Counted from the first letter of the stretch, positions 21,017 to 43,627 are shown. The stretch: DNA of 64,000 nt from a virus (IMGVR_UViG_3300013121_000007:32001-96000), one strand, 5' to 3'. Numbers and translations: made by a program. The notes: a model not told the origin generated them from the sequence alone.

Positions 21017-21474
21017 AGACCTCTTAGATTGGTGACAGGTCGTTCTACTAAAGGTGCAGCAGCCGCTCTTTGATCCAAGTAGAACCGAAACTTGTCAGCG
21101 TCACAAGGTGAAACAGCAAATGGTATGGTTTCCAGCATACCAAGATCAGCCATGTCTCGCAGCAACACAAACAGATGCATTCCTGACCTGAAAGCTAGAT
21201 GCGAGTTACCAAGCATCATCACTTCAGGGGGTTCAAGGTTTGCGTAGTTCTTCAAGAGATAATCTCTTGCAGCTTGATCTATCTCCTCGGCGTTACAGGC
21301 TTGTACACGAGATATGTACTCCTGTGGAACACTGCCACGCCAGCAACGATCAACAGTAAGCACGTTAGCGTCTACGACTCGAAACCCCAAAGAAGCTGCG
21401 CGGCGTGACAGCTTGAAGCGAAGCTCAGAAGGTTTGGGGCAGAGAATCATGACGAGTAAGCAACAGTCTACCAA
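21013..21474 (-). CDS. Hypothetical protein
   Basis: Overlap packing; start uncertain. Confidence 0.55.
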   Translation of the reverse strand: MVDCCLLVMILCPKPSELRFKLSRRAASLGFRVVDANVLTVDRCWRGSVPQEYISRVQACNAEEIDQAARDYLLKNYANLEPPEVMMLGNSHLAFRSGMHLFVLLRDMADLGMLETIPFAVSPCDADKFRFYLDQRAAAAPLVERPVTNLRGL

Positions 21475-21983
21475 TGTAGACTTGAAGATGAGTCTTCAGA
21501 AAGAAGAGCTTCAACCTGTGACTCAAACGGACCCATAGTATCCTCATAGATATCGGTGTTTGATCTGCTGAACTTGCCAGAGTTCTTATCCGCCGACTTG
21601 ATTTGCTTGTTGCTGAAGACGACAGCCATGTTTCTCTTGGGATCGAAGATTCCGTCATACCCCATTTTCTTCAAAACAGTGTGCAGCTTAGGCGTAGAGA
21701 CACTGCCACCCGAAGAAGCAATTCGGTAAACATCATCGAACGTCGCAGGATTCTCAATTCTCAGGTAGCACTTGAGTGGACTGCCGAAGCCACTCGCGAA
21801 GTTCTCACGAGTCGCGAAGAACACTCCACGAATATCTGTCTTTCGAGAACGACTTACGTCGAACACCCGAAACTGCTTGCTCGTTCCGTGGTAGACGACC
21901 AACGGTCTACCCGCTGAATCGACAACCTTGGAATTCGCAAACCATTTCCGAAACTGTGGAGTGTCAGTCACTGTACTCATCAT
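21468..21983 (-). CDS. ADP-ribosyltransferase-like domain (ART-PolyVal type) with C-terminal GPFE tag
   Basis: FRKWFANSKVVDSAGRPLVVYHGT, GVFFAT, YLRIENP, GYDGI, VVFSNKQIKS. Confidence 0.78.
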   Translation of the reverse strand: MMSTVTDTPQFRKWFANSKVVDSAGRPLVVYHGTSKQFRVFDVSRSRKTDIRGVFFATRENFASGFGSPLKCYLRIENPATFDDVYRIASSGGSVSTPKLHTVLKKMGYDGIFDPKRNMAVVFSNKQIKSADKNSGKFSRSNTDIYEDTMGPFESQVEALLSEDSSSSLHW

Positions 21984-22651
21984 CAGGAAATGTAAGCGAC
22001 CACTTCGTACCGACCGGTGTCGAATTTGTGCCACGACAGGATGAGCATGGCGTTGTCAATGATCGTATGAACATCGTAGTCGTCAGCAGTCCCCACAACA
22101 CCGATTTCAATGCGAGCGTTTCCATCACGACCTGTCAAGAACCCGGACCATGTAGTTCCGTCTTCCTGCACAAGCAAGTACCCGCGTCTCCGCAGAATGT
22201 CATCAATAGACTTCAGCGGAATCTGAGACTGTATGGGTCTCACAAGGTCCGCAATGTCTCCGTTCATCTGATTTCGGATGCCTGCGGGTATCCGTATCAT
22301 GGCCCCACTGAACTGAGATTCAACCTGTGACTCAAACGGACCCATGTTTTGGCCTTCAATAGCGCTGCCGTGAATCACCACCGGCTGAACTTTTCGGACA
22401 ACCATCGTGGTGTTGGCTGGTTTCAACATCTTGATCTCGTACCCTGCTTTACAGAGAGGATTCCTCAGTTTTTCGAGTTCATCCCGATGTAGGTATTCAT
22501 CCTCGCCGACGTTGCGCCAGATTACCGTAGCGTGATTCTCTTTGGCTATACGAACCTCAAATCCTGACTGTCCTCCTGCAATGTACAGAGGAGCAACTTG
22601 GCTAATCACAGCTTTTAGCCCTGTCGCATCTAGGGGTTCATAGACGTTCAT
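21983..22651 (-). CDS. Two-domain hypothetical protein with internal GPFE tag
   Basis: AIEGQNMGPFESQVESQF; ATGA overlap at 22651. Confidence 0.7.
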   Translation of the reverse strand: MNVYEPLDATGLKAVISQVAPLYIAGGQSGFEVRIAKENHATVIWRNVGEDEYLHRDELEKLRNPLCKAGYEIKMLKPANTTMVVRKVQPVVIHGSAIEGQNMGPFESQVESQFSGAMIRIPAGIRNQMNGDIADLVRPIQSQIPLKSIDDILRRRGYLLVQEDGTTWSGFLTGRDGNARIEIGVVGTADDYDVHTIIDNAMLILSWHKFDTGRYEVVAYIS

Positions 22652-23721
22652 GGTTTTGGTGATGGTAGCTGCTTCTCCCAAAATGATCCAGCTACGTCTA
22701 CCCAAAGTTTTCTAGTCTTCGGTTCAGACGCCGCTACCCGAAGCAACTCACGATTGGCCTCATTACCGCCCTGAAGAACACCCGCGACTGGCTGCCAGAT
22801 CAGCATCTGATGACGAAAAGTATGGTACAAGTCATAAGCCGGATCATGACCGATCCCGACAAAGCTGTAAGCTCTCCTAACAGCGTCAATGAACACTTGC
22901 CTATGGGGAAGCATCTTCTCTAGTGTCGTACTACGAATCACCTCCGGAGAAACACCTGAGAACTTGCTAGAAACTGATGCTACTGAATCTGCAACGCTGA
23001 TAGCATCGAAGCTGACAAGCTCTGTTGTACTAGGGTCGAAAAGCTGATTCCTGGTACAGTCACCAGAGGTTGCTACCACTGGTACACCGCACAGCAGATA
23101 TTCAGTTGAAGCGTAGTTTGACCCCTCTCTTTCAGAGAGTGACAACCCGCAAGTGGATCGTTGAATCCACGATGGAACTTTGTCTCTTGGAATAGCCCCC
23201 GTGAACGAACCATTTTTGAATTGCGGCGCAACAACGTTCTCAAAACTCAGTATTGATTCCGTATAGGTCTTCGTTTCGTCCTTGAAAGATTCCATTGTCA
23301 GCCACAACCACTTACCGCGAATATGGCTGCAGAGATCAAGTCGCTTTCTCGCTATAGGCCGAGCAATGTAGATGGCCGCATACTCTTTTGAGCAATCCAA
23401 AGGACGATACACCCTTTCATCACACAATGCGTTTGGTTGGAACGGAGAAGCCAACAAACCACTTGACAGGAAAGCATCAAGCTCTTGAGGTCTATCAAGA
23501 AGAAACTCAATGTAATGATTGGGGTGGGAACACTGATGTTCTAGTGCCCACTTCGTAGCGTACTCAATGTCTCTGGGGTACAGCTTCCAATTTGTAGAGG
23601 CTAACACAGCCAAAGGTTGTGGAGACTCAAGCGCAGAAGCAAATTGAGGTTCCCACGGTGTCTTAGCGTAGACAACAGTAGGCTCCCTGTGCAGCACTTG
23701 GAAGAACTGGGACGTAGACAC
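22648..23721 (-). CDS. GT-B glycosyltransferase
   Basis: ARPIARKR; EGSNYASTEYLLCGVPVVAT (E-x7-E). Confidence 0.78.
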   Translation of the reverse strand: MSTSQFFQVLHREPTVVYAKTPWEPQFASALESPQPLAVLASTNWKLYPRDIEYATKWALEHQCSHPNHYIEFLLDRPQELDAFLSSGLLASPFQPNALCDERVYRPLDCSKEYAAIYIARPIARKRLDLCSHIRGKWLWLTMESFKDETKTYTESILSFENVVAPQFKNGSFTGAIPRDKVPSWIQRSTCGLSLSEREGSNYASTEYLLCGVPVVATSGDCTRNQLFDPSTTELVSFDAISVADSVASVSSKFSGVSPEVIRSTTLEKMLPHRQVFIDAVRRAYSFVGIGHDPAYDLYHTFRHQMLIWQPVAGVLQGGNEANRELLRVAASEPKTRKLWVDVAGSFWEKQLPSPKP

Positions 23722-23722
23722 T

Positions 23723-24880: not shown

Positions 24881-24904
24881 TGATGCAGTCCAGTGACCAA
24901 GGCC

Positions 24905-25495: not shown

Positions 25496-25501
25496 AAAGG
25501 G
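25473..25501 (-). other. Candidate -1 programmed ribosomal frameshift signal
   Basis: In-frame C_CCU_UUC, 5-nt spacer, hairpin GCCCCGC-AGA-GUGGGGC. Confidence 0.6.
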
Positions 25502-25971: not shown

Positions 25972-26099
25972 ACTGTCTCTCCAATCAACGGAAAATACCG
26001 TGTCTAGCTGATTGACGAAAAACCGCCCGCTTTTTTCTTTTCCAGGCTTGCAGTTGTTGTCGCAACCATGCTCCTGCGCAGACCTTACAGTCTGCTATC

Positions 26100-27275
26100 C
26101 TACGTCTGCAAGTGGAGTTGATCCTTCGCACCCGCAGCTACTTGCTCTGCCTTGATACTGACTACCCGACCTTTTCTCTCTGCAGCCGTCAACTTCCGGA
26201 AAGCCGCTTGGTAGTCCAGAAGTACAAGGTCTACCTGCCAATCGGCAATAGACGCAAAGTAGTCGATGGCCATCTTGGGCATGTGGACTCGATCTTTCGA
26301 CGTCCAACGGTAGTCGTCAAACAACAGAATACCGTTTTCTTTCAACCGGGGAATAGACACTAGTCCATCATGGAGACAGTCAATGGCTTCATGTGACCCA
26401 TCGACGTAGATTACGTCGAAGTGTTCCTCAGGAAACAAGGAAACAGCATTTCGAGAGAAATCACGTATCTTCCTAACACGGTGAGACTGGCCTGAAATTG
26501 CGATGTTCCAGTCAAATGCGCGCTCGCGGGATCGAAGTTGCCAAGGGTCAATGCAGACCAGCGAGGAGGATTGGTCCGTAAGGATATTCTCCAACCACCA
26601 GATTGCGCTCCGTCCCTCGTAAGAGCCAATCTCAAGGAATCGAAGATTGGGCTTCCCCTTCAGATGAGAAAACAGTCTGACCCAGTGTGGTATTCTGTGC
26701 GTAACGTAGTCTGTGCCAGAGGTGTATGCTGGGCGCATAGCTACCCTGAGAGCGTCATCACCTGTATTCAAAATAGGAAAGTCTTTGGACTCTTGCGGCT
26801 CTGCTACTTTCAGCATACCGCATACTGAAGACCAACTTAGTGAGTCTAATGGAATACTGTAGACCCGATCAGAATGTTTCAGCCTTGCGTCTGTTACTAC
26901 TCTTTGATGCAGGTCATAATGCAACCTCAAGTGGTCTGTAGATGGTATATCCATCTCACTGTGCTTGCCAGACTTTCTGTACGCTGCTGTACGCACCAGC
27001 ATAGACGTCACCCAGTCTTCTACTGGTCTATAGATGTTGACTAGGATTGCGTCTTCGTATAAGTCGGCAAGTTCCTCCACTGGAATGTCCATCTCGAAGC
27101 CGAACAGAGCTTGGACTTCATAGACAGACTTGTCGATCTCACCCTGTCTTGCTTTCCTTGCAATTTCAGCAGCCCATTTTGCGTCTCGTACACATTTCAG
27201 ACCACATTGAACCATAGACTCTTGCAAGCTATGCGAGGCGGTTCGGGGAAGCCCAATGTAGATTACAGTCTTCAT
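26100..27275 (-). CDS. Sulfotransferase-like domain fused to class I methyltransferase (Methyltransf_24-like)
   Basis: YIGLPRTASHSL (PAPS-loop-like), RPVEDWVTS; LEIGSYEGRS, VIYVDGSHE, LLFDDY. Confidence 0.8.
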   Translation of the reverse strand: MKTVIYIGLPRTASHSLQESMVQCGLKCVRDAKWAAEIARKARQGEIDKSVYEVQALFGFEMDIPVEELADLYEDAILVNIYRPVEDWVTSMLVRTAAYRKSGKHSEMDIPSTDHLRLHYDLHQRVVTDARLKHSDRVYSIPLDSLSWSSVCGMLKVAEPQESKDFPILNTGDDALRVAMRPAYTSGTDYVTHRIPHWVRLFSHLKGKPNLRFLEIGSYEGRSAIWWLENILTDQSSSLVCIDPWQLRSRERAFDWNIAISGQSHRVRKIRDFSRNAVSLFPEEHFDVIYVDGSHEAIDCLHDGLVSIPRLKENGILLFDDYRWTSKDRVHMPKMAIDYFASIADWQVDLVLLDYQAAFRKLTAAERKGRVVSIKAEQVAAGAKDQLHLQT

Positions 27276-28588: not shown

Positions 28589-28591
28589 GTC

Positions 28592-29056
28592 CTACGTCTT
28601 CTTTGCAGTTGCCCCGCGGCGCATTTGATTGTTTGGCCTTCTCGCTGCTGTGAAGTTCGGAGCTTTCGTTTTTCTGTAGTCGATACGGTGACGCCGTTCT
28701 GTAACAGGGCAACCTAAAAGAGCGTCAACAGCTTCCTTGATTCGATTGTCAAGCATTGAGCTACTCCCTTGTTCTGCGAACTTTGGTGTATTCACTGGTA
28801 CTGTAGAGAGGTGGGACGACTCTTTCAACCTCACGCGCCCAACGTAGAAACCGTCCTCTTCCTGACTGACAAACTGAAATGAATGCTCACCTCGGTTCAC
28901 CATCACATACCAGCAGTTTTTGGAACCGCTCCACCAAGAGAAAGCAGCAGCTTTACGAAGTACCGGTACACTGTGAATGAAAGCCTCTGCCGATGCACTT
29001 GAATGAAACTCAAGCGCATTCTTTGGTGCTTCTGATACTTCAGACTGTGACGTCAT
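28592..29056 (-). CDS. Hypothetical protein
   Basis: 154 aa; basic C-terminus; IKEAVDALLG helix. Confidence 0.6.
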   Translation of the reverse strand: MTSQSEVSEAPKNALEFHSSASAEAFIHSVPVLRKAAAFSWWSGSKNCWYVMVNRGEHSFQFVSQEEDGFYVGRVRLKESSHLSTVPVNTPKFAEQGSSSMLDNRIKEAVDALLGCPVTERRHRIDYRKTKAPNFTAARRPNNQMRRGATAKKT

Positions 29057-29316
29057 CAGCCGTGCGGATAGTTATTTCTGAGGTAGTTGGAAGCATCGTC
29101 CATCGAAGTAAATGTCAGCTTGAGAAGTTCTTTCGGGTTGCTGTGAGCGGGCCTAGCGATGAACATAGTAGGTTTTGTCCCTGTTTCGTTCACCCAGCCA
29201 ATGATCTGCCGTGTCACAAAACTGCGCACCGTAATCCAGCCCTGCGGAACGATCTTTTCATCTGGTAGGGGCGTTGACTCAACCAGCGTCTCGACTTGCT
29301 CTTCAAATGGTCCCAT
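29056..29316 (-). CDS. GPFE-tagged small protein
   Basis: MGPFEEQVETLVES. Confidence 0.75.
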   Translation of the reverse strand: MGPFEEQVETLVESTPLPDEKIVPQGWITVRSFVTRQIIGWVNETGTKPTMFIARPAHSNPKELLKLTFTSMDDASNYLRNNYPHG

Positions 29317-29358
29317 GAGTATCCCCCTGACCTAGGTTAGAGCATCGTTGTAGTCATA

Positions 29359-29910
29359 TTACTTGAGAAGAACTGCAACGGTGATATGAAAATCGAATTC
29401 GTTGTTACGAGGTAGCCGACTAAGCCCCAGAGACTCTCTGAAGTCTTCTAACTCTGGCGAACGAACAGTCACATACCAGACCTTTTCCCAAGTGTCTGAT
29501 TCTGGAAAAACCAACTTGAGTGGTCCGATTTGATACCTGAACTCATGACCCTCAAAAACTTTCAGGCGGTCAGCCCCACCCGCCGCTTCGACATCCGATG
29601 GGTGCAAAACTGAAATGTGCGCATTCAGTCTACCTTCATTGTACTCATCGCTGGTAGGCAACTCGATCCCAGGAACATCAAGTGTTGAAAACACACCCTC
29701 AACGAACTTGTTCGGCACTGCGAGCAGCATCCACCCAGAATCTGCTCTGTAGAGTTTCCCAGACATACGAGTCTGAAGAATGGGGGATGTCGTCTCCCGC
29801 TCAACCACAACAATTCGACCTAACCCCCACGGAGTTCGTTGAAGTGGCGGAGTAGACGCTGAGCGTCCCTCACACAAGGCGTTCACACGGCGTTCAAATG
29901 GTCCCATCAC
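29359..29910 (-). CDS. GPFE-tagged 2H phosphoesterase (Acb1-like)
   Basis: MGPFERRVNALCEG; HISV and HITV motifs. Confidence 0.8.
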   Translation of the reverse strand: MMGPFERRVNALCEGRSASTPPLQRTPWGLGRIVVVERETTSPILQTRMSGKLYRADSGWMLLAVPNKFVEGVFSTLDVPGIELPTSDEYNEGRLNAHISVLHPSDVEAAGGADRLKVFEGHEFRYQIGPLKLVFPESDTWEKVWYVTVRSPELEDFRESLGLSRLPRNNEFDFHITVAVLLK

Positions 29911-30613
29911 CGCTTCCTAGGTACTTGTTTTCAAAGAAGGCCGCGACAACTTGTCGTGTAACTGGACTGTCGGACCCAGCACACTCAAATTGGAACTCAA
30001 AAGCGCGTCCGTCGTCACTCTTTGGTTGCTCTCGCGGACCTTTTCTCATCCTCGTGTAGTAAGCACTTGCGTTGTGGACCGACCATGCCCCTAGCTTGAC
30101 GATGGAGCCGTCTCTGTTCAACAGAGAAGCTGTATCTGATCCTGCCAATTTCAGCAACACACCATCCTGGTTGTACTTCTGCCGCAACAACTTCATGCTA
30201 CCCAGGAACTGCTCAGCAGACTGCGCATAGTCGTCCGAGGTTGGCCCTGAGACAATCAGGGATTCTTCCTCAACCTTTCTGGTCTCATCTGACCCATCTA
30301 TGGATTCAATCCAACCTCCGTATACTGGCGTATACCCGTAGCCGAGACTACGGATGTCTGACATCAGTGACCGATTCCGTCCTCTATTCTGTGTCAGGGT
30401 AAACTCCCCGCCGCGGAATGCCGAGATGATGGCTACATTTCTTGCCGTCTCGCTGAACAGGGCGAATACGCGAGCAAGAGAGCGTCCCGCAGCCTCCTCA
30501 AGAGACACCCCATCCATTGCTGCCAGATACTCGACATACAGGCGCGGAAAGTCTTCCGTGTTGACGCGGGAGGCCTTGTAGGCGTTGTCGATCAAGTCCT
30601 CAAACAAACCCAT
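29894..30613 (-). CDS. GLFE-tagged hypothetical protein (DUF3293-like pattern)
   Basis: IISAFRG...RNRSL...GGWIE...EESLIV...YNQDGVL. Confidence 0.7.
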   Translation of the reverse strand: MGLFEDLIDNAYKASRVNTEDFPRLYVEYLAAMDGVSLEEAAGRSLARVFALFSETARNVAIISAFRGGEFTLTQNRGRNRSLMSDIRSLGYGYTPVYGGWIESIDGSDETRKVEEESLIVSGPTSDDYAQSAEQFLGSMKLLRQKYNQDGVLLKLAGSDTASLLNRDGSIVKLGAWSVHNASAYYTRMRKGPREQPKSDDGRAFEFQFECAGSDSPVTRQVVAAFFENKYLGSGDGTI

Positions 30614-30646
30614 GTTCTTCCCCTAGAAAGAGAGAATCTCTGTCCA

Positions 30647-30674
30647 ATTGTATCACGTTTCTCTCTTGAGTCAA
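30647..30674 (-). promoter_or_regulatory. TTGACT-N16-TACAAT promoter
   Basis: Motif copy with an extra TGAGTCA at 30678-30684. Confidence 0.75.
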
Positions 30675-30681
30675 GCGTGAG

Positions 30682-30913
30682 TCATGTCACTGTCAGCCAG
30701 GGACCCATCGCGTTTTTCCAGTCTGAAATGGTCTTTGTTGGGACTTGGAAGTCAGCCTTTCTCTCATCCTTGGCGTTGAACAGACCCCATTTGTCCTCAG
30801 AGGCAGAATAAGGCATCAGTCTTTTGAGGACTGATCTGACTGGCGGCTCTTTCCACAAACAGAGCCTCAACCATAGACTCAAACAACCCAGGAGTATTCA
30901 CAGGACTACTCAT
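30682..30913 (-). pseudogene. GLFE-tagged small gene with apparent frameshift near 30850
   Basis: ATG 30913 gives MSSPVNTPGLFESMVEALFVE then stops after 38 aa; +1 frame continues EPPVRSVLKR... to 30682. Confidence 0.45.
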
Positions 30914-31833
30914 TGTTGTGAGAGTACCCAACGACTTAGCATAGACTGCGTATATTGCTGCCAGCCCTTTGGAAACACACGATTCAACTTCTGTAGAATC
31001 GTGTTGTACACAGTGGTTGCTCTTTTCAATTGTCTTCTCTGATTATCCAGCGTCAGGCTATCCCAATAGCCGATTTTTCTTGCGACTTCTACAAACTTCG
31101 CAGGGAACTCACGAGGACTTCTTCCGAGTATCCCTTGCCAGCCTCTGACCTCTTTGGCTGTATTCCTTGGTGAGCCGTCTCTTCCCAACGAAGTTAGAGT
31201 ATGGTCAAGCTCTGAAAGCAGCGGTTCGACAGTCTGCTCAAAGTAAGCCTGCAATTCAGCATCTGAGTTGTAGTACGCCGTGAAAACACTCTTATCGTTA
31301 GTCTTGTCTGGTGTAGACTTGTCGATTACAGACGCATCAGGAGCTTTGTACCCACCCATTACCTTATTTCTCTTTGAATCAAGGTAATGTGTGTACTCGT
31401 GCTTGAACGATTCTGTGATTACAAGGCTGCGCCAGAACTTGTAAATGTTGTCACCGATGTAGAGCACAAAGTCTTCTGGAGACAACGGAACAGCAAGCTG
31501 AATTGTTGGTCTATCACCATCCCTCTGCGGAGGTCCAAAACCACCGGCGATATGACCTGTCATGGGTGCAAACGACAAGAACCCATCGAACACTTTGTTT
31601 ACTCTAGTGATGCTTCTGAAGTCGAACCCGATTCCATGCTCTGGACCTTTCGGGTGTACCTCACAGAATCTTGCAAACAGGGGCGGACTACCCTGGATTG
31701 TCCTGAAGAATTCACCAATCGTATTGTGAGCTACGTTGACTCGATCATGTGTCGTCCAATCGTTACGTCGCTCCACGATACGATTGACTTCAGCCTCAAA
31801 GGGGCCAATACGAGATTCTGTACTTGTAGGCAT
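30910..31833 (-). CDS. GPFE-tagged HExxH metallopeptidase-like protein
   Basis: STESRIGPFEAEVNRIVE; FKHEYTHYLD; YYNSDAELQAY. Confidence 0.72.
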   Translation of the reverse strand: MPTSTESRIGPFEAEVNRIVERRNDWTTHDRVNVAHNTIGEFFRTIQGSPPLFARFCEVHPKGPEHGIGFDFRSITRVNKVFDGFLSFAPMTGHIAGGFGPPQRDGDRPTIQLAVPLSPEDFVLYIGDNIYKFWRSLVITESFKHEYTHYLDSKRNKVMGGYKAPDASVIDKSTPDKTNDKSVFTAYYNSDAELQAYFEQTVEPLLSELDHTLTSLGRDGSPRNTAKEVRGWQGILGRSPREFPAKFVEVARKIGYWDSLTLDNQRRQLKRATTVYNTILQKLNRVFPKGWQQYTQSMLSRWVLSQQ

Positions 31834-31839
31834 TTCAGG

Positions 31840-32640
31840 CTACCTGAGATTGTTTGCGTAGCGACTGCTCATGAACTCAACTGTCTTTGATACGGCGTCG
31901 CGAAACCCGCGGCCTTCCATCATAACAGCTAGGACTGTAAAGAACTTGACATAGTCCTTGACTGTATTGAGTGCAACGCAGATAAGCTGCAGCGTACTTG
32001 ACGTCTCGTAGAGAGACTCCTGTTGTTTTGTAGACAGGAAGTCAGATACTACCTTTCGTACAGCCTGTAACGGAGCGCGAGGACGAAAAGGGAGAACTGA
32101 AAGAAGTACAGCGGCCGAACCAACTGGTATTCCTGGAACCGCCCAGTCACCAATCAATGACAATGCGTAAGCAAGATGAGTTACCCATTTTGGCGCACCT
32201 GTAATGTCTACAGCAGCACCCGCGACTTCAGGCGCAGCATTCGCCAAGGTCCAGGCTTTTGTAAACAGCCTACTCAAAAATGACTCTTCCAATGCACCTT
32301 CTGTGTACAGCCTTTCCACTTGCTTCTCAAAAGGACCTTGTAGCATCAGGTCCGCAACGGTTCGTACAACTTCTGACCCCGGACTTGGACTAGTCACTGG
32401 AAATAGGAAGTTGATGTATTTCGACCACGCCCCATCTTCTTCTGGGTCTGGGTAGCCTGCAACAGACCAATCGTCGAAAGCCTCTTTCTCCGCTTCAAAA
32501 GCACTCTTTGAAAACTCATACACGTAATGTGCTGCTTCATAGCTACGATTCCAACGATCGTTAGCAGCATCAATCAGACGGGCCATAGCCAGTCTAATCT
32601 TGCGCTGCTTCTCGTCGATGGTCAGTGTATTCCAGTTCAC
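31840..32640 (-). CDS. Hypothetical protein with internal GPFE tag and hydrophobic segment
   Basis: QGPFEKQVERLYTEG. Confidence 0.7.
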   Translation of the reverse strand: MNWNTLTIDEKQRKIRLAMARLIDAANDRWNRSYEAAHYVYEFSKSAFEAEKEAFDDWSVAGYPDPEEDGAWSKYINFLFPVTSPSPGSEVVRTVADLMLQGPFEKQVERLYTEGALEESFLSRLFTKAWTLANAAPEVAGAAVDITGAPKWVTHLAYALSLIGDWAVPGIPVGSAAVLLSVLPFRPRAPLQAVRKVVSDFLSTKQQESLYETSSTLQLICVALNTVKDYVKFFTVLAVMMEGRGFRDAVSKTVEFMSSRYANNLR

Positions 32641-33731
32641 GCAAAGATTTCCTTGAACTTAGAGTAGTGAGGTTCCTCTAAGTTACCCAGGATGTACATC
32701 GCAAAGGCTTCGCAAAAATGCTCTTCCGGGTCCCCAGAGTCCAATGAGTATTTTGTTGGGAAGCAGGACTCTGCTCTGCGCTCAATGTAGTAGTTTTGAA
32801 TCTGACGTCTTGTGATGAATTTGTTATCTGCTACGTAGAACTTGTCTCCGTCAATGTGCAGCACAATTGGAGGCTCAGAGCCGTAACCCTGCACTTCTAC
32901 TGGCAACCTTTCTCCTACCTTTGGGTAACTTCCGCTGGTTGGGTGAAACGACTGATACTTTGCTTTCAGTCTCAAACCCTTATCCCACTGCTTCCATTCT
33001 GGGATACCCTTAGACAGGAATCGTCCCCAGTACCGATGGCCAAACTCATGAATCACTGAATGCTCAGAAGCTGTACCTTGCCTTGTCTTCTCACGAATCC
33101 ACATTGTGTCATCACTACCGCGGTAGAAAGCAAGACTACCCGCTGTCGATAGATTTGCTGCCACAAAAATCTGACCGTACAGGATGTCTGTTACTCTCGG
33201 CAGTCTACTAGCCCTTATCTTTGTAGCTGCGGACTGAATCAACTTCACAATAGAGGACATATCCGCGCGACCGGTCGTATCGCTTACAGTAATTCCGTCT
33301 ACTGTGATACCAACATCTGCAAGCTCCCAGTCTTTTGACTCCAACAAAAGCCTCATGCCATCTCTATTCCTCGCAAAGAAGAGACGGACATCTTTAGGTT
33401 GTCGTCTTAGTGAAGTGAAGGCTTTAGCGACAGTAGACAAGTTCCTTACAGACGCTGGAGGTTTTCGTGTACGCAAGACGTGAAAAGCAAGCTCTTTGAA
33501 AGATCGAGCAACCTCAACTCCACCCGTAACGGACCACAGAACCTTGTCCGAATACTGGGCATCCTTCAAACGAGGTTCAAACCTCAACCAATGTTTCGCT
33601 GCATTCTCATAGACAATTCTCTCTGCTGGAGACAATGATTCATGCACAGCAAGTAGCAAAGAACGACGCGGACCTAGTCTAGGTTCGCATCGTTCCATCT
33701 CCTCGAAAATGCGCTCAAACGGTCCCATCAA
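32637..33731 (-). CDS. GPFE-tagged zincin metallopeptidase
   Basis: VIHEFGHRYW plus TKYS...EEHFCEAF third-ligand motif. Confidence 0.78.
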   Translation of the reverse strand: MMGPFERIFEEMERCEPRLGPRRSLLLAVHESLSPAERIVYENAAKHWLRFEPRLKDAQYSDKVLWSVTGGVEVARSFKELAFHVLRTRKPPASVRNLSTVAKAFTSLRRQPKDVRLFFARNRDGMRLLLESKDWELADVGITVDGITVSDTTGRADMSSIVKLIQSAATKIRASRLPRVTDILYGQIFVAANLSTAGSLAFYRGSDDTMWIREKTRQGTASEHSVIHEFGHRYWGRFLSKGIPEWKQWDKGLRLKAKYQSFHPTSGSYPKVGERLPVEVQGYGSEPPIVLHIDGDKFYVADNKFITRRQIQNYYIERRAESCFPTKYSLDSGDPEEHFCEAFAMYILGNLEEPHYSKFKEIFA

Positions 33732-33773
33732 GACTACTGAGTCTCAAACCTCAGCCTACCCTTCTTTGTTAGG

Positions 33774-34538
33774 CTAGTTCACGGATTCGAGTTCTTCCTC
33801 TCCTGTACCCTTATCACGAGAGAACTCTGCACCACAGTTTCGACAGCGGAAGTGTTCCTTGTTGCCAAGCGACCCCAGATACATACCAGGACCACCGCAT
33901 ACGGGGCATTCCGTCGGAAGATCGTCATCGACACCTTCCGTCATCGCTTCAACTGGTCTCTCGAAAGTTTTGCTCCTCTTCCTTCTCATATCGTACCACA
34001 GCGCCGCATTAGAGTAATGCAGTCTGTTGTTTGGATCGAATCGCACCGTGCGAGTCTTGATGATTGGATTTCCCTTCTTGTCAGAGACAGGCTTACCGTC
34101 AGAGCCGAGAATAAGCCAGTTAGCGCAGTCCTCCCACGACTCTCCGACGAAAGTCATACTGAGGTCTTGTGTATACGCAATGTACACACGGACGTTGTGT
34201 TCCAGTGCCTTCTGAATGATCTGGTCCCTAGGCGTAAAGTGATGCGCCCAGGTGAAACCCTCGTTGACCATAGACTCGACTTGCTTCTCGAACGGTCCCA
34301 TAGTGTCAGACTCCTTCAGATTGTTAGGAACTTGATCGGCGCTTGCGACAATCCTGAACGGACCAACTCTAATCCCTTGGCCTGACTGGAAGTCATCCAG
34401 CTTTTGGGCAATCAGGTTGTATATGTACTGTACTGACTTGCCTGTCGTTCTGGCAATCCGTGTAGCTGTTTTTAGCAAGTTACCTGGAACTACCTCATCC
34501 GGTTCCAGGTAGACCTTTACTGTATCAGTGAATCTCAT
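33774..34538 (-). CDS. Three-module protein with GPFE tag and C-terminal Zn ribbon
   Basis: LKESDTMGPFEKQVESMVNEG; KTFERPVEAMTEG; CPVC...CRNC. Confidence 0.72.
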   Translation of the reverse strand: MRFTDTVKVYLEPDEVVPGNLLKTATRIARTTGKSVQYIYNLIAQKLDDFQSGQGIRVGPFRIVASADQVPNNLKESDTMGPFEKQVESMVNEGFTWAHHFTPRDQIIQKALEHNVRVYIAYTQDLSMTFVGESWEDCANWLILGSDGKPVSDKKGNPIIKTRTVRFDPNNRLHYSNAALWYDMRRKRSKTFERPVEAMTEGVDDDLPTECPVCGGPGMYLGSLGNKEHFRCRNCGAEFSRDKGTGEEELESVN

Positions 34539-34540
34539 GA

Positions 34541-35056
34541 CTACTCCAGTGTAACAAGCATCGAAACAGGGATGCTGTAGGGCAGGTCACTTTGATTCCG
34601 CTGGTTGCGGAACATCGAATCCCATTCGATCTCAGCCAGCAAGTTGTTGGCTCTAAACTTTTTGATGACGCCGCTGGCCGTGTACCTCAAATCACCCCGC
34701 TGAACACCCTGCTTTTTGAGGATGTCTGAGTTGCACATTACAGCGTCACCAACACTCAGTTCATTACCCCGTGAGTCCTTGATAGTCTCTTGCAGACTTT
34801 CATTCACCAGCGCATCCAGGACAGCCTGACCGTATCTGGTCATGGCATCGTACTTGGATATCCCTAGTGCAGCAGAAATTGCGTCAGTCAGAGGTTGCAA
34901 GTCACTGGGAGTGTTCTTGTCTCCGAATGGCCTATACGTTCCGTCTTTCAGCTTTTTACGGATTCTGTTAGCCGCCTGAACAACACCAGGATTTGTGAGC
35001 AGACCCGCAGGAAGTCCTTCACAGAGTGTTTCGACTTGTTGCTCAAAAGGACCCAT
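34541..35056 (-). CDS. GPFE-tagged protein
   Basis: MGPFEQQVETLCEG. Confidence 0.75.
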   Translation of the reverse strand: MGPFEQQVETLCEGLPAGLLTNPGVVQAANRIRKKLKDGTYRPFGDKNTPSDLQPLTDAISAALGISKYDAMTRYGQAVLDALVNESLQETIKDSRGNELSVGDAVMCNSDILKKQGVQRGDLRYTASGVIKKFRANNLLAEIEWDSMFRNQRNQSDLPYSIPVSMLVTLE

Positions 35057-35301
35057 TAGTTCTCACCTTGTAGTATGTCACCAATCTCATAGACTGTCAT
35101 GACCTTTTCGGAGCCATTCGGCAACCTCACTCTGTATCTTGCTGACATAGACTGTGAGTCAAAAGCAGCGCCGCCTAACAGATGGTATCCAAGTTTACGT
35201 AACTCATCAGCCGCTTGAGTTATGTTCAGTTTACGCAGCTTGCTTGGAAGCCTGAGTTCGACCAAGAGTTCAAACAATCCCATAGCAGCCTCAGTAGTCA
35301 C
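35056..35301 (-). CDS. GLFE-tagged small protein
   Basis: MGLFELLVE; true start probably 35284. Confidence 0.6.
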   Translation of the reverse strand: MTTEAAMGLFELLVELRLPSKLRKLNITQAADELRKLGYHLLGGAAFDSQSMSARYRVRLPNGSEKVMTVYEIGDILQGEN

Positions 35302-35842
35302 TGGGGAGAAGAATAGTCGTCACGCTTCGATCAGCCTCAGTAATGATCCAAATCTTCTCACCACTCTTGAGAACGTAGACTGAAAGAAGTCGCTCGCCAT
35401 CCCTCAAGGCGTCTTCATTGCTTCTCGCATCTTCAGAGTCAACCTCACCCCAATCCCCTTTAGCGTGCCGCTGTAAGTAAGCAGCCGCTGTCTCCTTAGA
35501 CTTACCGAGCGCGCGAAGGGCAGCCGGTGTTGCGACGATACGACCCATTGTAAAATGGCTAACGCTCTCCGTGAGAAGGTTGACTCGTCTCTCAAACGGA
35601 CCAATCGAGCTTTCAGCGTTTCCACTATGGTCGACGATTCGGACGTCACGAAGGCTGTATCCAGTATCAGCAACAGCCTTACGAATGGCCTCAGTTCGGT
35701 CGTGCGAAGTAAAACGAAAGTACCTATCTTCATCTGTATGGTAGTATCTCGCTTCCCACCGACCGCCGATGTAGTCGACGTAGATAGGAAACTTGTCCAT
35801 ACCAAGATTAGATGCTGCGACGACGAACGGTTGTATTGGCAC
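35291..35842 (-). CDS. Two-domain protein: GPFE tag plus plasmid-associated WIITEADRS domain
   Basis: GRIVATPAA...RHAKGDWG...WIITEADRSVTTILLPSDY. Confidence 0.78.
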   Translation of the reverse strand: MPIQPFVVAASNLGMDKFPIYVDYIGGRWEARYYHTDEDRYFRFTSHDRTEAIRKAVADTGYSLRDVRIVDHSGNAESSIGPFERRVNLLTESVSHFTMGRIVATPAALRALGKSKETAAAYLQRHAKGDWGEVDSEDARSNEDALRDGERLLSVYVLKSGEKIWIITEADRSVTTILLPSDY

Positions 35843-35880
35843 TGTAGTTGCACCTTACTGGTATCTTGAGTATGCGATAG

Positions 35881-36471
35881 TTACAGCAAATCAATCCCAC
35901 GTCCAATTTTGCTGTCAATCGCAGAAGCCCAGACAGAAGTACGTCCATTACTCCCATACGAAAGATCGTACAGAAAGTCTTCCTCCCCGCTGATTCCATG
36001 ATAACTCTGGGTGACTCTCTCAACGTGATAGGATAACCCACTATGAATCCTAGTCACGCCAACAGCTTTCGAGACATAGAACGAGTCACCAACTGCAAGT
36101 GCGGGTCTATTCAAAGAAAGCCACGCTGACTCAACCTGTCTCTCAAAAGGACCACGTTCCTCATTCTGAAGAGGGTACTGCTCAGGAGAATTTGAACGCA
36201 GCTTGCTCACCTCATTCTCTGTGGCAACCCTGTAGGTCATATTTGACGACCTGAACATCTTGACCAGTGCCTTGATCGCCTCTTCCTTGTCTCGGAATCT
36301 ACGACGCTTCCCAGATGCGTCAGACCAGCCCATCGGATTGTCCGAAGACTTCACCCACCAACTGCGCGTACCACCAGCACCAGAAAAGATTCCGTAGACC
36401 GTTCCATTTACAATAAATCCGGGAATTCTAGCGGTATCCATACTTGGCTCCTCAGTGATTTTTGGCATCAC
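35881..36471 (-). CDS. Two-domain protein with internal GPFE tag
   Basis: QNEERGPFERQVESAW. Confidence 0.7.
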   Translation of the reverse strand: MMPKITEEPSMDTARIPGFIVNGTVYGIFSGAGGTRSWWVKSSDNPMGWSDASGKRRRFRDKEEAIKALVKMFRSSNMTYRVATENEVSKLRSNSPEQYPLQNEERGPFERQVESAWLSLNRPALAVGDSFYVSKAVGVTRIHSGLSYHVERVTQSYHGISGEEDFLYDLSYGSNGRTSVWASAIDSKIGRGIDLL

Positions 36472-37433
36472 GCATTCCTTCTATTACCGATAGCGTCGCC
36501 GTAGGCTAGAGACACAGGCAGCAGTTTTGATATTGGAAGGTCAATCTTGATCCCAGGCATCTGCATAGCCGGGTCAATGACTAGAGCACTAGTCCATCGG
36601 TGATGCCCGTCGATGATGTAGTTGTCCGAAGACATGATGGTCAAAGACTTGGACAGAAACGACCTTGTCGCAGCAACGCCGAACTTCCCAGTTGCGCCCA
36701 TGCACTTGTCAAAGTAGATTTGCTTCTGTATCGGTTTCAAGTCTTTTGCAGCAACCTTGACAGACGTCACTTTGACCTTGTCATCTTGCAGGTCTTTGTC
36801 TTCTAGACCCAGACGGACGAACTCATCAGCTTCCTCACCAGAAAGACCCTCAGGCCAAGGATTTCCGGGATTCGTATGTGGAGCAAGAGGTTTCTCAATA
36901 TCCAGATGTCCATCCTTCAGCCTCTGCTGAAACTCGCGAACCTGCGTGTCATTGATGACAGGCATATCGCGTCTCTGAGTCTTGCCGACTTTCGTCTTGT
37001 TCTGCGCCAGTAGAAAGTTCTGATCGAATTCAGGAATCTGGTCATCCAGACTACGATTGTTCGCCTTGAATACAGCCTCTGCATAGGCTCTAGCTACATC
37101 AAGCGAGATACGATCCACCTCAAGTTTTCCTGCGTCTTGTCCACCCTCTTCGTGAATCAAAGAACGCGCAAAACACAATTCCACCTGATTCTCAAACGGA
37201 CCACAACAAGACTCACTGACGACACGACCATTCTTGTCAGTCTCCAGCCAGACGTAGTTGAATACTCGACGCCTAATCAAGTCTTCATTCCTGGAAGACA
37301 GTTCCCGTAAGGTGATGTGAACTACAGAAGCCTGAATCTTCAGGCTGTTTGCATCAAACATAGCAGCGTAGACATAATCACCCCAAGAACGGTTGTCGTT
37401 GCGAACCTGATTAGAAAACACTTCAGTCATCAC
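36468..37433 (-). CDS. GPFE-tagged ParB/Srx-like domain protein
   Basis: RRDMPVI, LKPIQKQI, SSDNYIIDGHHRW. Confidence 0.75.
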   Translation of the reverse strand: MMTEVFSNQVRNDNRSWGDYVYAAMFDANSLKIQASVVHITLRELSSRNEDLIRRRVFNYVWLETDKNGRVVSESCCGPFENQVELCFARSLIHEEGGQDAGKLEVDRISLDVARAYAEAVFKANNRSLDDQIPEFDQNFLLAQNKTKVGKTQRRDMPVINDTQVREFQQRLKDGHLDIEKPLAPHTNPGNPWPEGLSGEEADEFVRLGLEDKDLQDDKVKVTSVKVAAKDLKPIQKQIYFDKCMGATGKFGVAATRSFLSKSLTIMSSDNYIIDGHHRWTSALVIDPAMQMPGIKIDLPISKLLPVSLAYGDAIGNRRNA

Positions 37434-38248
37434 AACTCTCCCCGCACAATTTGACCAGCATGGCCTACACCACGGGCGATCTCTACACCCTTCACAGCAG
37501 TCGCTGACGCTTCAGCAGAACCAAGCAGTGAGACGCCATAATGCAAGACTCCCAACAAACCATGAATGGCGAAGTAGACTAGCAGTAAGGAGTACAATAC
37601 GCTCTCTGTCTTTTCACGAGCCTTGCTGTGCCTGTACTCATCGAAAGTCAGCAAAATTCCAGTAGCTTTGAACCCGCGATTCCAAGCTCTTCTGTAGACA
37701 GCGTAAGAGAGCCGGTCTGGGATGACAACGTCTAGCGTCCCCATCTCTACAAGATGTAAAACGTGCCAGCACTCATCAACAGCCCTTTGTATGCTACGCA
37801 GTCTTAGTAGACCACACAGCTTTGACAGACCTTTCAGCATCAGAGGTAGTCCGCCAATAGCGCCAAGAGTCAATCCGATAATGGAACTGACTCCCATATC
37901 CTCACGAAGATTGTAGCTCTCAGGGATTACTCGTAGAGAATCGCCAGAGACAAAACGGCGAACTTCTATCTCGGTATCCCTACTCCTGATGAGGTCAACA
38001 ATACTCATCGCTCTAACAGCGGCTGCCGACCTTGGGATCATCTGCCCAGAGTCTTCGGAAGCTCCAAGCCAAAGTTCTTCTACGCCCTCCAACGGCTTTT
38101 TGAGGCGAAGAAGCTGGTTGAGCTTATTCCGTAGCGGTGAAAGTAAACGAGCAACAATCGCGCGGATAGAATCCAGAATCCCTTCTGTGTAAACAGTCTC
38201 AAGTTCTACTTCAAAGGGACCCATGAGCTTGACTCTAGAGAGTTGCAC
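37430..38248 (-). CDS. GPFE-tagged protein with hydrophobic helices
   Basis: MGPFEVELETVYTEG; likely start 38224. Confidence 0.7.
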   Translation of the reverse strand: MQLSRVKLMGPFEVELETVYTEGILDSIRAIVARLLSPLRNKLNQLLRLKKPLEGVEELWLGASEDSGQMIPRSAAAVRAMSIVDLIRSRDTEIEVRRFVSGDSLRVIPESYNLREDMGVSSIIGLTLGAIGGLPLMLKGLSKLCGLLRLRSIQRAVDECWHVLHLVEMGTLDVVIPDRLSYAVYRRAWNRGFKATGILLTFDEYRHSKAREKTESVLYSLLLVYFAIHGLLGVLHYGVSLLGSAEASATAVKGVEIARGVGHAGQIVRGEL

Positions 38249-43429: not shown

Positions 43430-43627
43430 CTACTCCCAGGAATCAAAAACCCACGTCATGTTACGAAAAACGTACTTAGGCTTGTTTGAGTTTTTCGTCT
43501 TCGGCCAAAACACCATCCCATTCTTAGCCGATGGTGCAGTCAAAAACTCACCGCCGTCAAACGGCCCGCCAAATACGGGACATCTGGCAGGAACAGACTC
43601 CGGATACTGAACTTCGTCAGACATCAC
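43430..43627 (-). CDS. Small GGPxDG protein
   Basis: FGGPFDG. Confidence 0.55.
   Translation of the reverse strand: MMSDEVQYPESVPARCPVFGGPFDGGEFLTAPSAKNGMVFWPKTKNSNKPKYVFRNMTWVFDSWE

What the first reader, a model, noticed from the sequence alone, without database searches (positions are those of the whole stretch)
21468..38248. Shared GPFE peptide tag on about 16 unrelated proteins: candidate capsid-targeting, excisable signal for virion-delivered effectors
Seen: 13 ORFs carry G-P-F-E-x-(Q/R/E)-V-(E/N)-x-L and 3 more carry G-L-F-E. All 14 consecutive ORFs from 29056 to 38248 have it, plus two at 21.5-22.6 kb. Third codon positions vary (GGT/GGA/GGC, CCG/CCA/CCT/CCC, GAG/GAA), so conservation is at protein level. 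The tag is N-terminal, internal or C-terminal. It usually ends in hydrophobic-x-E then S/G/D (LVES, LCEG, LTES, YTEG, VNEG). When internal it is mostly also preceded by such a site (IYED, AIEG, LKES, NAES, QNEE, VSES). Known: T4 gp21 cleaves after (I/L)-x-E, and T4 internal proteins enter the head through a short cleaved capsid-targeting sequence; this window encodes a gp21-like protease. Inference: a portable amphipathic helix loads cargo into the prohead and is then cut out, making internally tagged ORFs polyproteins. The cargo (2H phosphoesterase, ART, zincins, ParB-like) matches counter-defence and polyvalent-protein domains.
Basis: partly seen in the sequence, partly recalled or inferred. 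Interest (0 to 1): 0.92.

Follow-up and report, generated by a model that had tools for sequence, protein, structure and literature searches.

The report
Shared capsid-address-like tag on phage proteins
An uncultured relative of phage T4 puts the same short acidic helix (core G-P-F-E-x-x-V-E) on 16 otherwise unrelated proteins, most likely as an address label that loads them into the virus head for injection, as T4 does with three or four proteins, but no virion data exist to prove it.

Summary
Sixteen minus-strand ORFs (window 21468-38224) carry G-[PL]-F-E-x-x-V-[EN]; nothing comparable occurs elsewhere in the 192.6-kb genome. Conservation is at the protein level. The 24 cargo segments share no similarity.

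The tag is a lineage trait:
- A 172-kb relative (capsid protein 64% identical) has about 30-40 tagged genes interleaved with sheath, capsid and protease genes.
- A third lineage has seven tagged genes.
- Eight metagenomic orthologues of one cargo keep M-G-P-F-E-x-x-V-E.
- More distant homologues lack it.

Best reading (about 0.5): a capsid-targeting peptide of the T4 internal-protein kind. The genome has a gp21-type protease with its catalytic His and Ser. Most tags end in hydrophobic-x-Glu. The cargo includes domains known from virion-packaged polyvalent proteins.

The "excisable internal tag / polyprotein" part is weaker. The Glu site is not conserved among orthologues. One internal tag has its own strong ribosome-binding site and ATG. 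The C-terminal tag on the ART protein is a young DNA copy of a neighbouring tag.

This is a new variant of a known kind. The scan has noted similar shared N-terminal tags in other uncultured large phages. Packaging itself is untested.

The parts
37430..38224 (-). 264-aa ORF, tag at N-terminus (38180-38224); two hydrophobic TM-like segments
36468..37433 (-). 321-aa ORF, internal tag (37161-37205) after 76 residues; DGHHR motif, phrog_2859 match downstream of tag
35881..36471 (-). 196-aa ORF, internal tag (36112-36156)
35291..35842 (-). 183-aa ORF, internal tag (35561-35605)
35056..35283 (-). 75-aa ORF, N-terminal GLFE variant of the tag (35239-35283)
34541..35056 (-). 171-aa orphan ORF, best-scoring N-terminal tag (35012-35056)
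33774..34538 (-). 254-aa ORF; internal tag (34257-34301) preceded by a strong Shine-Dalgarno sequence and ATG; second degenerate tag near 33930-33975; C-terminal zinc ribbon
32637..33728 (-). 363-aa ORF, N-terminal tag (33684-33728); HExxH motif, no profile hit
31840..32640 (-). 266-aa ORF, internal tag (32296-32340); one TM-like segment
30910..31833 (-). 307-aa ORF, tag at residues 9-23 (31765-31809), second tag-like helix near residue 198; HExxH motif
30797..30913 (-). 38-aa micro-ORF coupled by ATGA overlap to the gene before it; little more than a GLFE tag (30848-30892)
29894..30613 (-). 239-aa SAM lyase with the weakest (GLFE) tag (30569-30613); its own sigma-70-type promoter lies at 30647-30674
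29359..29907 (-). 182-aa 2H-SAK phosphoesterase, N-terminal tag (29863-29907); in the model the tag is a separate helix (residues 3-13) on a low-confidence linker
29056..29316 (-). 86-aa ORF, N-terminal tag (29272-29316)
21983..22705 (-). 240-aa ORF, internal tag (22301-22345) after 120 residues
21468..22034 (-). 188-aa ART-PolyVal ADP-ribosyltransferase with the tag (21492-21536) appended after the natural end of the domain; its DNA is 30/31 identical to the tag at 22315-22345
19556..19870 (-). 104-aa ORF downstream of a conserved glycosyltransferase, with a degenerate C-terminal tag; the positional counterpart in the relative G001 also ends in a tag
6484..8268 (-). 594-aa gp21-type (S77) prohead protease with catalytic His and Ser, fused to a long helical part with 25 [LI]-x-E sites (scaffold-like)
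4946..6415 (-). gp23-type major capsid protein; L70-x-E72 is invariant in six relatives and lies where T4 gp23 is cut
8569..9345 (-). 258-aa very basic protein (pI 10.3) just upstream of the protease gene (a 120-aa ORF, 8238-8600, overlaps both), with a tag-like helix at residues 57-70; its counterpart in G001 starts with a canonical tag (internal-protein-like)
10486..11874 (-). 462-aa hyper-acidic low-complexity protein conserved in G001, ending in a tag-like helix (not significant by profile)

Best explanation
The G-P-F-E-x-x-V-E-x-L peptide is a capsid-targeting (cargo-loading) tag. It is a short acidic amphipathic helix on a flexible, proline-rich linker. It docks otherwise unrelated proteins onto the scaffolding core or the inner shell of the T4-type prohead, so that they are enclosed, retained and delivered with the DNA. 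In many but not all cases the gp21-type protease then trims the tag at the hydrophobic-x-Glu that ends it.

The cargo is a fast-turning-over set of host-takeover and counter-defence candidates: ADP-ribosyltransferase, 2H phosphoesterase, SAM lyase, nuclease-like and HExxH proteins, two membrane-type proteins and many orphans.

Shown here:
- The tag exists, its conservation is at the protein level, and its cargo is unrelated.
- It is conserved across three phage lineages and eight orthologues.
- It is helical and amphipathic.
- The capsid and protease genes are T4-type.

Inferred:
- Binding to the prohead.
- Packaging.
- Cleavage.
- Injection.
For: 1. Head machinery. The genome has a gp23-type capsid protein and an S77 protease whose catalytic His and Ser align to T4 gp21 (PDB 5JBL). 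The protease carries a scaffold-like tail with 4.2 [LI]-x-E per 100 aa, against about 1.2 elsewhere. The capsid protein has an invariant L-x-E where T4 gp23 is cut.
2. Glu end. Hydrophobic-x-Glu falls 9-10 residues after the Phe in 11/21, 20/34 and 5/8 core-motif hits in three genomes, against 5-7% background.
3. Context in the relative G001. It has 27 tags at 8 bits or more and about 30-40 by eye, nearly all N-terminal. They sit on small genes interleaved with sheath, capsid and protease genes. No tagged G000 cargo protein has a blastp hit in G001, so cargo turns over while the tag stays.
4. Third lineage. G003/L049 has seven tagged genes 4-9 kb upstream of the protease and capsid genes.
5. 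Internal-protein-like gene. A conserved, very basic protein next to the protease carries the tag; it is canonical in G001 and degenerate in G000. This parallels the basic T4 internal proteins.
6. Orthologues of one cargo. Eight metagenomic orthologues of the 2H enzyme (45-73% identity) keep M-G-P-F-E-x-x-V-E invariant while the next 10-20 residues diverge. Homologues at 41-51% identity lack the tag. In other jumbo phages the domain heads 934-1057-aa polyvalent proteins.
7. Physical properties. The helical hydrophobic moment is 0.56 against 0.29 background, the net charge is -1.8, and proline is twofold enriched after the tag. AlphaFold models the tag as helix 3-13 joined to the 2H domain by a linker with pLDDT below 50.
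8. Literature. T-even internal proteins are diverse defence proteins that share only the CTS (PMC3012670). The T4 CTS is about 10 residues and is cut once (PMC8442874). S77-type proteases all cut after Glu (PMC5694885). ART, ParB-like and peptidase domains of polyvalent proteins are known or predicted to be packaged and injected (PMC5512222). The first 30 residues of P1 DarB are a CTS (PMC9024508).
9. Promoters. The phage's sigma-70-type promoter family is frequent at genome 80-158 kb but has only two members in the 0-80 kb block that holds the structural genes and the tag cluster.
Against: - There are no virion data; this is an uncultured phage with no cultured relative (best cultured capsid-protein identity about 33%).
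- The hydrophobic-x-Glu end is missing in 6 of 16 tags and is not conserved among the 2H orthologues.
- The tag has no sequence similarity to the T4 CTS beyond its style.
- Seven tags are internal or C-terminal, which is unprecedented for the T4 CTS.
- The SAM lyase gene has its own strong early-type promoter and the weakest tag.
- Genes just upstream of the cluster (38-48 kb) are accessory, not structural, so late expression in G000 is not established.
- The portal gene is about 100 kb away.
- The profile search of 1.84 billion proteins returned only TPR and LRR repeat proteins, so the helix alone is not distinctive.
Confidence: 0.5

Rival explanations
1. The tag is a docking helix for some other common partner, not the capsid interior. 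Candidates are a phage or host hub protein (polymerase, chaperone, unfoldase, membrane complex) or a site on the outside of the virion or tail. On this reading the tag groups the proteins functionally without loading them into the head.
For: The helix is generic; it resembles a TPR helix A, and the only significant library hits were repeat proteins. The tag works at N-terminal, internal and C-terminal positions. The Glu site is not conserved. SAM lyase and 2H enzymes are classically early cytoplasmic proteins, and the SAM lyase gene has an early-type promoter. Earlier scan notes describe look-alike tags that turned out to fit virion-surface docking or enzyme recognition better.
Against: No candidate partner was identified. 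In G001 and G003 the tagged genes cluster beside the protease and capsid genes. The Glu end is enriched about tenfold. A basic protein next to the protease carries the tag.
Confidence: 0.22
2. The tag is a recognition (leader-like) sequence for a modifying enzyme of the phage. Candidates are the radical-SAM maturase, one of the glycosyltransferases, or the methyl/sulfotransferase encoded between the two tag sub-clusters. On this reading the tag marks substrates for post-translational modification.
For: The genome encodes a radical-SAM enzyme, and glycosyl-, methyl- and sulfotransferase genes lie at 19.9-27.3 kb between the tagged genes. A conserved glycosyltransferase is followed in both G000 and G001 by a small gene ending in a tag. 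An earlier scan note on phage RB43 reached this reading for another shared tag.
Against: The radical-SAM genes lie about 40 kb (G000) and 30-50 kb (G001) from the tags. The tag has no conserved Cys, Ser, Thr or Lys that would be an obvious modification site. The 40 tagged genes of G001 are spread among head and tail genes, not around one enzyme.
Confidence: 0.08
3. The tag has no targeting role. It is a shared gene-start cassette kept by recombination (a module-shuffling junction), and the internal and C-terminal copies are scars of gene fusions.
For: Two tags 809 nt apart are 30/31 identical in DNA. The ART tag is appended after the natural end of the domain. A 38-aa micro-ORF is almost only tag. 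Internal tags retain ATG and, in two cases, Shine-Dalgarno-like sequence.
Against: Third codon positions are nearly random while positions 1 and 2 are invariant. Most tag pairs are only 63-80% identical in DNA, which is too low for homologous recombination. Eight orthologues at 45-73% identity keep the nine-residue core invariant. That is purifying selection on the peptide.
Confidence: 0.07
4. It is a DNA-level repeat related to the phage's Cas12m guide repeats, which happens to lie in coding sequence.
For: That distance could have pointed at this region.
Against: The tandem 58-69-nt repeat units lie at genome 124.3-124.7 kb, on the other side of cas12m. The only repeat family in 20-39 kb is the tag itself, and it shows codon-periodic conservation.
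Confidence: 0.01

Closest known systems
Capsid-targeting sequence (CTS, MKTYQEFIAE) of phage T4 internal proteins IPI/IPII/IPIII and Alt, cut by gp21 (Mullaney and Black 1996; PMC3012670, PMC8442874, PMC5694885)
   Same: A short acidic amphipathic leader is shared by otherwise unrelated, fast-evolving proteins. The head is T4-type with an S77 protease. The leader often ends in hydrophobic-x-Glu. The cargo includes an ADP-ribosyltransferase (as T4 Alt) and counter-defence candidates. A basic protein sits beside the head genes.
   Different: The sequence is different and longer (a 9-13-residue core). It is on 16 proteins here and 30-40 in a relative, against 4-5 in T4. The cargo is mostly enzymes rather than small basic proteins. 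Seven tags are internal or C-terminal. The Glu site is not universal. Packaging is not demonstrated.
Long propeptides of ejection/inner-body proteins of giant phages (phiKZ, 201phi2-1, SPN3US), cut at [SAG]-x-E (PMC5694885, PMC7411985)
   Same: Many head-internal proteins are processed by a gp21-type protease after Glu. Some paralogues share identical N-terminal 15-mers. Some have a membrane segment in the mature part.
   Different: Those propeptides are mostly 80-160 residues and are family-specific, not one portable short tag on unrelated proteins.
Polyvalent proteins of phages and conjugative elements (Iyer et al. 2017, PMC5512222)
   Same: The same domain vocabulary appears (ART-PolyVal, 2H-SAK; ParB-like and HExxH motifs by eye). 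Delivery with the DNA at the start of infection is predicted.
   Different: Polyvalent proteins string 2-15 domains in one chain. Here the domains are separate or two-part ORFs, each with its own tag. In other jumbo phages the same 2H domain heads 934-1057-aa chains.
[quoted passage not shown]
   Same: An N-terminal signal is sufficient for head incorporation of an anti-defence protein, and a ParB-like DdrB is packaged.
   Different: That signal is known for one protein, not a shared tag. The head type and assembly order are different.
Encapsulin cargo-loading peptides
   Same: Short terminal peptides, at either end of unrelated cargo enzymes, dock onto the inner face of an HK97-fold shell. 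This is the best analogy for position independence.
   Different: Encapsulins are not a virus and use no protease. The sequences are unrelated. This is an analogy from general knowledge and was not tested here.

Membership tests
T4-type CTS / internal-protein system | One short peptide shared by otherwise unrelated proteins of one phage | tested here: met
   16 sites score 15-25 bits against 7 bits for the next best site. Cargo segments are unrelated.
T4-type CTS / internal-protein system | The phage has a gp23-type shell and a gp21 (S77) prohead protease with catalytic His and Ser | tested here: met
   PF07068 at 1.4e-48 and PF03420 at 6e-19. The alignment to 5JBL keeps the His and Ser motifs.
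T4-type CTS / internal-protein system | The peptide ends at a protease site ([LI]-x-E in T4) and is removed | tested here: inconclusive
   Hydrophobic-x-Glu is present in 10 of 16 tags and about tenfold enriched over background. It is not conserved among eight tagged 2H orthologues. Cleavage itself is not testable here.
T4-type CTS / internal-protein system | The peptide sits at the N-terminus | tested here: inconclusive
   9 of 16 are N-terminal or near it, 6 are internal and 1 is C-terminal. In G001 nearly all are N-terminal.
T4-type CTS / internal-protein system | Sequence similarity to the T4 CTS | tested here: not met
   The tag consensus shares only its style with MKTYQEFIAE: an aromatic at position 4 and periodic Glu. 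I made no formal alignment.
T4-type CTS / internal-protein system | Tagged proteins are found in proheads or virions, and the tag is sufficient for packaging | not testable with these tools
   The phage is uncultured and no proteome exists.
Polyvalent proteins | 2-15 disparate effector domains in a single polypeptide | tested here: not met
   The tagged ORFs are 38-363 aa with at most one recognised domain. The domain families ART-PolyVal and 2H-SAK are present as solo proteins.
Leader/recognition sequence of a radical-SAM or other modifying enzyme | Tagged genes encoded next to the enzyme | tested here: not met
   The radical-SAM genes lie tens of kb from the tags in G000 and G001. Transferase genes do lie between the two tag sub-clusters in G000.
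Cas12m-type CRISPR repeat copies | DNA-level repeat conservation independent of reading frame | tested here: not met
   Conservation is codon-periodic. The repeat units lie at genome 124.3-124.7 kb.

The most novel reading that the evidence does not exclude
The tag is a position-independent cargo-loading peptide that works at the N-terminus, inside a chain or at the C-terminus. A T4-type phage lineage uses it to load dozens of different enzymes and membrane proteins into the head. Chains with internal or double tags are true polyproteins that the head protease cuts into separate effectors inside the capsid. This would be a distributed alternative to the giant polyvalent proteins of other jumbo phages, and it would make the injected effector set readable from sequence alone.
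Probability: 0.2. Interest if true: 0.8.

Novelty: new variant of a known kind. Interest (0 to 1): 0.6.

Why it matters
If the tag is a head-loading label, a nine-residue motif would list the proteins these phages inject with their DNA. That is 16 proteins here and 30-40 in a relative, most of them orphans. Such a list is a ready catalogue of candidate counter-defence and host-takeover proteins in uncultured phages.

It would also show that the T4 internal-protein strategy scales from three or four proteins to dozens. It would show the strategy carrying enzymes that other large phages deliver as single giant polyvalent chains. A short, portable, possibly position-independent packaging tag for a T4-type head would be of practical use for protein delivery by phage particles in laboratory strains.

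Tried and rejected
- Cas12m-repeat rival: rejected.
- Exact degenerate DNA patterns for the tag in IMG/VR: only single, chance-like hits or one unrelated conserved protein.
- Near-DNA search of the phage collection: no match.
- Profile search of 1.84 billion representatives with 30-residue tag windows: only TPR and LRR repeat proteins, so uninformative.
- Tag profile on four capsid-relative fragments and 25 metagenome loci: no canonical tags apart from G003/L049. There were only loose helix look-alikes and lineage-specific shared N-termini in more distant relatives.
- Pfam and PHROGs on most cargo and head-module proteins: mostly no hits.
- Homologue search for the best-tagged orphan: found only itself.
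- Single-sequence AlphaFold of the two-tag protein: poor (pLDDT 45).
- Foldseek of the 2H model: only weak 2H-family rows.
- Sigma-70 and terminator scans: no more sites than in shuffles. No T4 late-promoter motif (TATAAATA) in the window.
I therefore could not examine the contigs of the eight tagged 2H orthologues.

Full report
WHAT THE WINDOW IS. The window is bases 32001-96000 of a single 192,583-bp viral contig from an uncultured phage. Almost all genes lie on the minus strand. It encodes a gp23-type major capsid protein (4946-6415; PF07068, E 1.4e-48) and a 594-aa gp21-type prohead protease (6484-8268; PF03420, E 6e-19; phrog_207). The best capsid-protein identity to any deposited phage is about 33%, and the tag region has no near-DNA match. 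The protease aligns to T4 gp21 (PDB 5JBL) with the catalytic His and Ser motifs intact. Its long C-terminal part has 25 [LI]-x-E sites, or 4.2 per 100 residues against about 1.2 in neighbouring proteins. That is the pattern of a scaffold that is cut to pieces. T4 mature gp23 residue 29 aligns to residue 96 here, which puts the expected maturation cut near residue 68-72. L70-x-E72 is invariant in six related capsid proteins. The portal gene lies far away, at genome 145-146 kb.

A six-frame scan finds 13 GPFE and 3 GLFE sites on the minus strand between 21533 and 38221, each inside a long ORF. The whole genome has only three other G[PL]FE sites in any frame, none with the extended motif. A profile built from the 16 sites scores them at 15-25 bits, and the next best site in the genome scores 7 bits. 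Conservation is at the protein level: positions 1 and 2 of the Gly, Phe and Glu4 codons are invariant (the second position for Val and Glu8), while third positions of the Gly, Pro and Val codons carry only 0.3-0.5 bits. The cargo is unrelated: 24 segments before and after the tags give no blastp pair below E = 0.06 and no hit to any other protein of this phage or its relative.

Tag positions are as follows. Seven tags follow the start ATG directly. Two lie within ten residues of the start. Six are internal, after 76-120 residues. One is C-terminal. Weaker extra copies are:
- the C-terminus of 19556-19870;
- a second site in 33774-34538;
- a second site in 30910-31833.

A DNA-LEVEL RIVAL IS EXCLUDED. 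The tandem units lie at genome 124.3-124.7 kb, on the far side of cas12m. The only repeat family in 20-39 kb is the tag itself, mostly 63-80% identical in DNA.

THE TAG IS A LINEAGE TRAIT.
- The capsid protein led to a 172-kb IMG/VR contig (G001, 64% identity). It carries a diverged tag, M-[GDN]-x-F-E-[QK]-x-V-[ENH]-x-L-x-E, on 27 ORFs at 8 bits or more and on about 30-40 by eye. Nearly all are at the N-terminus of small genes. They are interleaved with the sheath, capsid, protease and glycosyltransferase genes at 100-131 kb, with a few more at 148-151 kb.
- A few of those G001 proteins form small paralogue groups; the rest are unrelated.
- No tagged G000 cargo protein has a blastp hit in G001. 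The cargo set turns over completely while the tag stays.
- A third lineage (G003, the same phage type as metagenome locus L049; capsid protein 64% identical, 41% G+C) has seven consecutive genes that start with x-x-[NS]-F-R-E-A-[VI]-x-x-L-L-x-E. They lie 4-9 kb upstream of the protease and capsid genes.
- More distant relatives (capsid identity 53% or less) lack this tag but show their own shared N-termini on small genes before the protease.

ONE CARGO FOLLOWED THROUGH ITS HOMOLOGUES. Eight distinct metagenomic orthologues of the tagged 2H phosphoesterase (45-73% identity) all begin M-G-P-F-E-x-x-V-E, although the next 10-20 residues diverge or carry a 50-residue insert. Homologues at 41-51% identity have no tag. 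In IMG/VR jumbo phages the same domain has no tag and in two cases heads 934-1057-aa multidomain proteins. The tag is therefore a portable addition that is under purifying selection in this clade.

PHYSICAL NATURE OF THE TAG. The hydrophobic residues (Phe4, Val8, Leu11 and residue 12) and the acidic ones (Glu5, Glu9, often Glu13) fall on separate faces of a helix.
- The mean helical hydrophobic moment is 0.56 against 0.29 for background 11-mers.
- The net charge is -1.8.
- The twelve residues after the tag are twofold enriched in proline.
- With a 16-sequence alignment, AlphaFold models the 2H protein with the tag as helix 3-13, a linker with pLDDT below 50 at residues 14-17, and then a confident domain.
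- The single-sequence model of the two-tag protein is poor, but it places the first tag in a helix between coils.

WHAT THE CARGO IS. Confirmed by profile:
- ART-PolyVal (E 1.2e-22);
- 2H-SAK (E 8.7e-10);
- SAM lyase (E 4.9e-10);
- a zinc ribbon (weak, below the curated cut-off).

Seen only as motifs: DGHHR in 36468-37433, and HExxH in 32637-33728 and 30910-31833. Two tagged proteins have TM-like segments. The rest are orphans.

ARGUMENTS FOR HEAD LOADING. T-even internal proteins are described as a diverse set of defence proteins that share only a capsid-targeting sequence (PMC3012670). The T4 CTS is about ten residues and is cut once by gp21 (PMC8442874). All S77-type proteases cut after Glu (PMC5694885). 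ART, ParB-like and peptidase domains of polyvalent proteins are known or predicted to be packaged and injected (PMC5512222). The first 30 residues of P1 DarB are a packaging signal (PMC9024508). Against that background, the findings here are:
- Hydrophobic-x-Glu falls 9-10 residues after the Phe in 11/21, 20/34 and 5/8 core-motif hits of the three genomes, against 5-7% after any Phe.
- In G001 and G003 the tagged genes sit among or beside the head genes.
- A conserved, very basic protein just upstream of the protease gene (8569-9345; pI 10.3, and 11.4 after its tag-like helix) has a counterpart in G001 that starts with a canonical tag. This recalls the basic T4 internal proteins.
- A conserved hyper-acidic 462-aa neighbour ends in a tag-like helix in both phages, although this is not significant by profile.
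- The phage's sigma-70-type promoter family (a TTGACT box, a palindromic spacer and a TATACT-like box) has about twenty minus-strand members at genome 80-158 kb. It has only two in the 0-80 kb block that holds the structural genes and the tag cluster: one before the SAM lyase gene and one at window 19427.

WHAT WEAKENS IT.
- Nothing shows that any tagged protein is in a virion.
- Six of 16 tags lack the Glu end, and it is not conserved among the 2H orthologues. Trimming, if it happens, is not obligatory.
- The SAM lyase has the weakest tag and its own strong promoter.
- The genes just upstream of the cluster are accessory (a nucleotidase, a caspase-like peptidase and orphans). Late expression in G000 is therefore not established.
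- General promoter and terminator scans were uninformative.

THE POLYPROTEIN IDEA. The upstream parts of the internally tagged ORFs are real coding sequence. They are open for 76-120 codons, with starts coupled to the preceding gene. The residues just before the tags are polar and linker-like. Seven of nine tags with translated residues before them have a Glu 2-5 residues before the Gly.

These Glu codons also spell Shine-Dalgarno-like purine runs.
- The internal tag at 34298 has a predicted anti-SD duplex of -8.3 kcal/mol plus an ATG, below the 5th percentile of in-frame background.
- The tag at 21533 scores -6.1.
- The others are near background.

Three internal or C-terminal tags keep the Met. 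The ART tag is appended after the point where homologous ART domains end, and it is 30/31 identical in DNA to the tag 809 nt away. Internal tags can therefore be young gene fusions, in-frame internal starts, or true polyprotein junctions, and the data do not decide between these.

Some evidence favours function away from the N-terminus. Three proteins carry two tags each. The small gene downstream of a conserved glycosyltransferase ends in a tag in both G000 and G001.

OTHER RIVALS. A recognition sequence for a modifying enzyme is possible in principle. The phage has a radical-SAM enzyme, and transferase genes lie between the tag sub-clusters. But the radical-SAM genes lie tens of kb from the tags in both phages, and the tag has no obvious modifiable residue. 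A generic docking helix for another partner cannot be excluded. The helix resembles a TPR helix, and the only significant hits in 1.84 billion proteins were TPR and LRR repeat proteins.

VERDICT. The best explanation is a T4-style capsid-targeting tag with a new sequence, on a much larger and more enzymatic cargo set (confidence about 0.5). The excisable-internal-tag part is unproven (about 0.2). It is a new variant of a known kind.

The scan has recorded similar shared tags in other uncultured large phages, so this looks like one case of a wider pattern.

Noticed in passing
window 43627-44430 (-): A phage-encoded caspase-family peptidase (PF00656, E 1.4e-21) lies among accessory genes upstream of the tag cluster.
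   Followed up: no
window 10486-11874 (-); G001 121790-123208: A conserved 462/472-aa hyper-acidic, low-complexity (D/E/S/G/P-rich) protein lies just upstream of the head-core genes. It has no family match and ends in a tag-like helix in both phages.
   Followed up: partly
window 6484-8268 (-): The prohead protease is fused to a helical tail of about 340 residues that is very rich in [LI]-x-E. This is probably a protease-scaffold fusion. Residues near 417 form a tag-like helix.
   Followed up: partly
genome-wide; e.g. window 30647-30674, 48409, 52569, 61795 (minus strand): A promoter family has a TTGACT box, a palindromic TGACTCA-N3-TGAGTCA spacer and a TATACT-like box. About 20 copies lie at genome 80-158 kb and only two in the 0-80 kb structural block.
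   Followed up: partly
G001 119091-119766 (L034): The tagged, internal-protein-like gene next to the protease is split over two frames in the relative (a 90-aa tagged ORF and then a 163-aa ORF). This is either an assembly frameshift or programmed frameshifting.
   Followed up: no
L071 9830-13003 and L072 9935-12739: In other jumbo-phage contigs the 2H-SAK domain is the N-terminal module of 1057-aa and 934-aa multidomain (polyvalent-type) proteins.
   Followed up: no
L051 5603-6058 and 7353-7616; L063 18914-19279 and 20105-20377: More distant capsid relatives have their own shared N-terminal helices on small genes. In L051 these lie just upstream of the protease gene; in L063 they lie about 10 kb downstream of the capsid gene. 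This suggests lineage-specific tag variants.
   Followed up: no
window 26100-27275 (-) and 22648-23721, 19875-20684: A methyltransferase-sulfotransferase fusion and two GT1-type glycosyltransferases lie between the two tag sub-clusters. Their targets are unknown.
   Followed up: no
window 37430-38224 and 31840-32640 (-): Two tagged proteins have TM-like hydrophobic segments (residues 110-133 and 208-231; 167-185). They could be membrane-inserting ejection proteins.
   Followed up: partly
genome 145018-146202 (outside the window): The T4-type portal gene lies about 100 kb from the capsid and protease genes, unlike the contiguous T4 head module.
   Followed up: no
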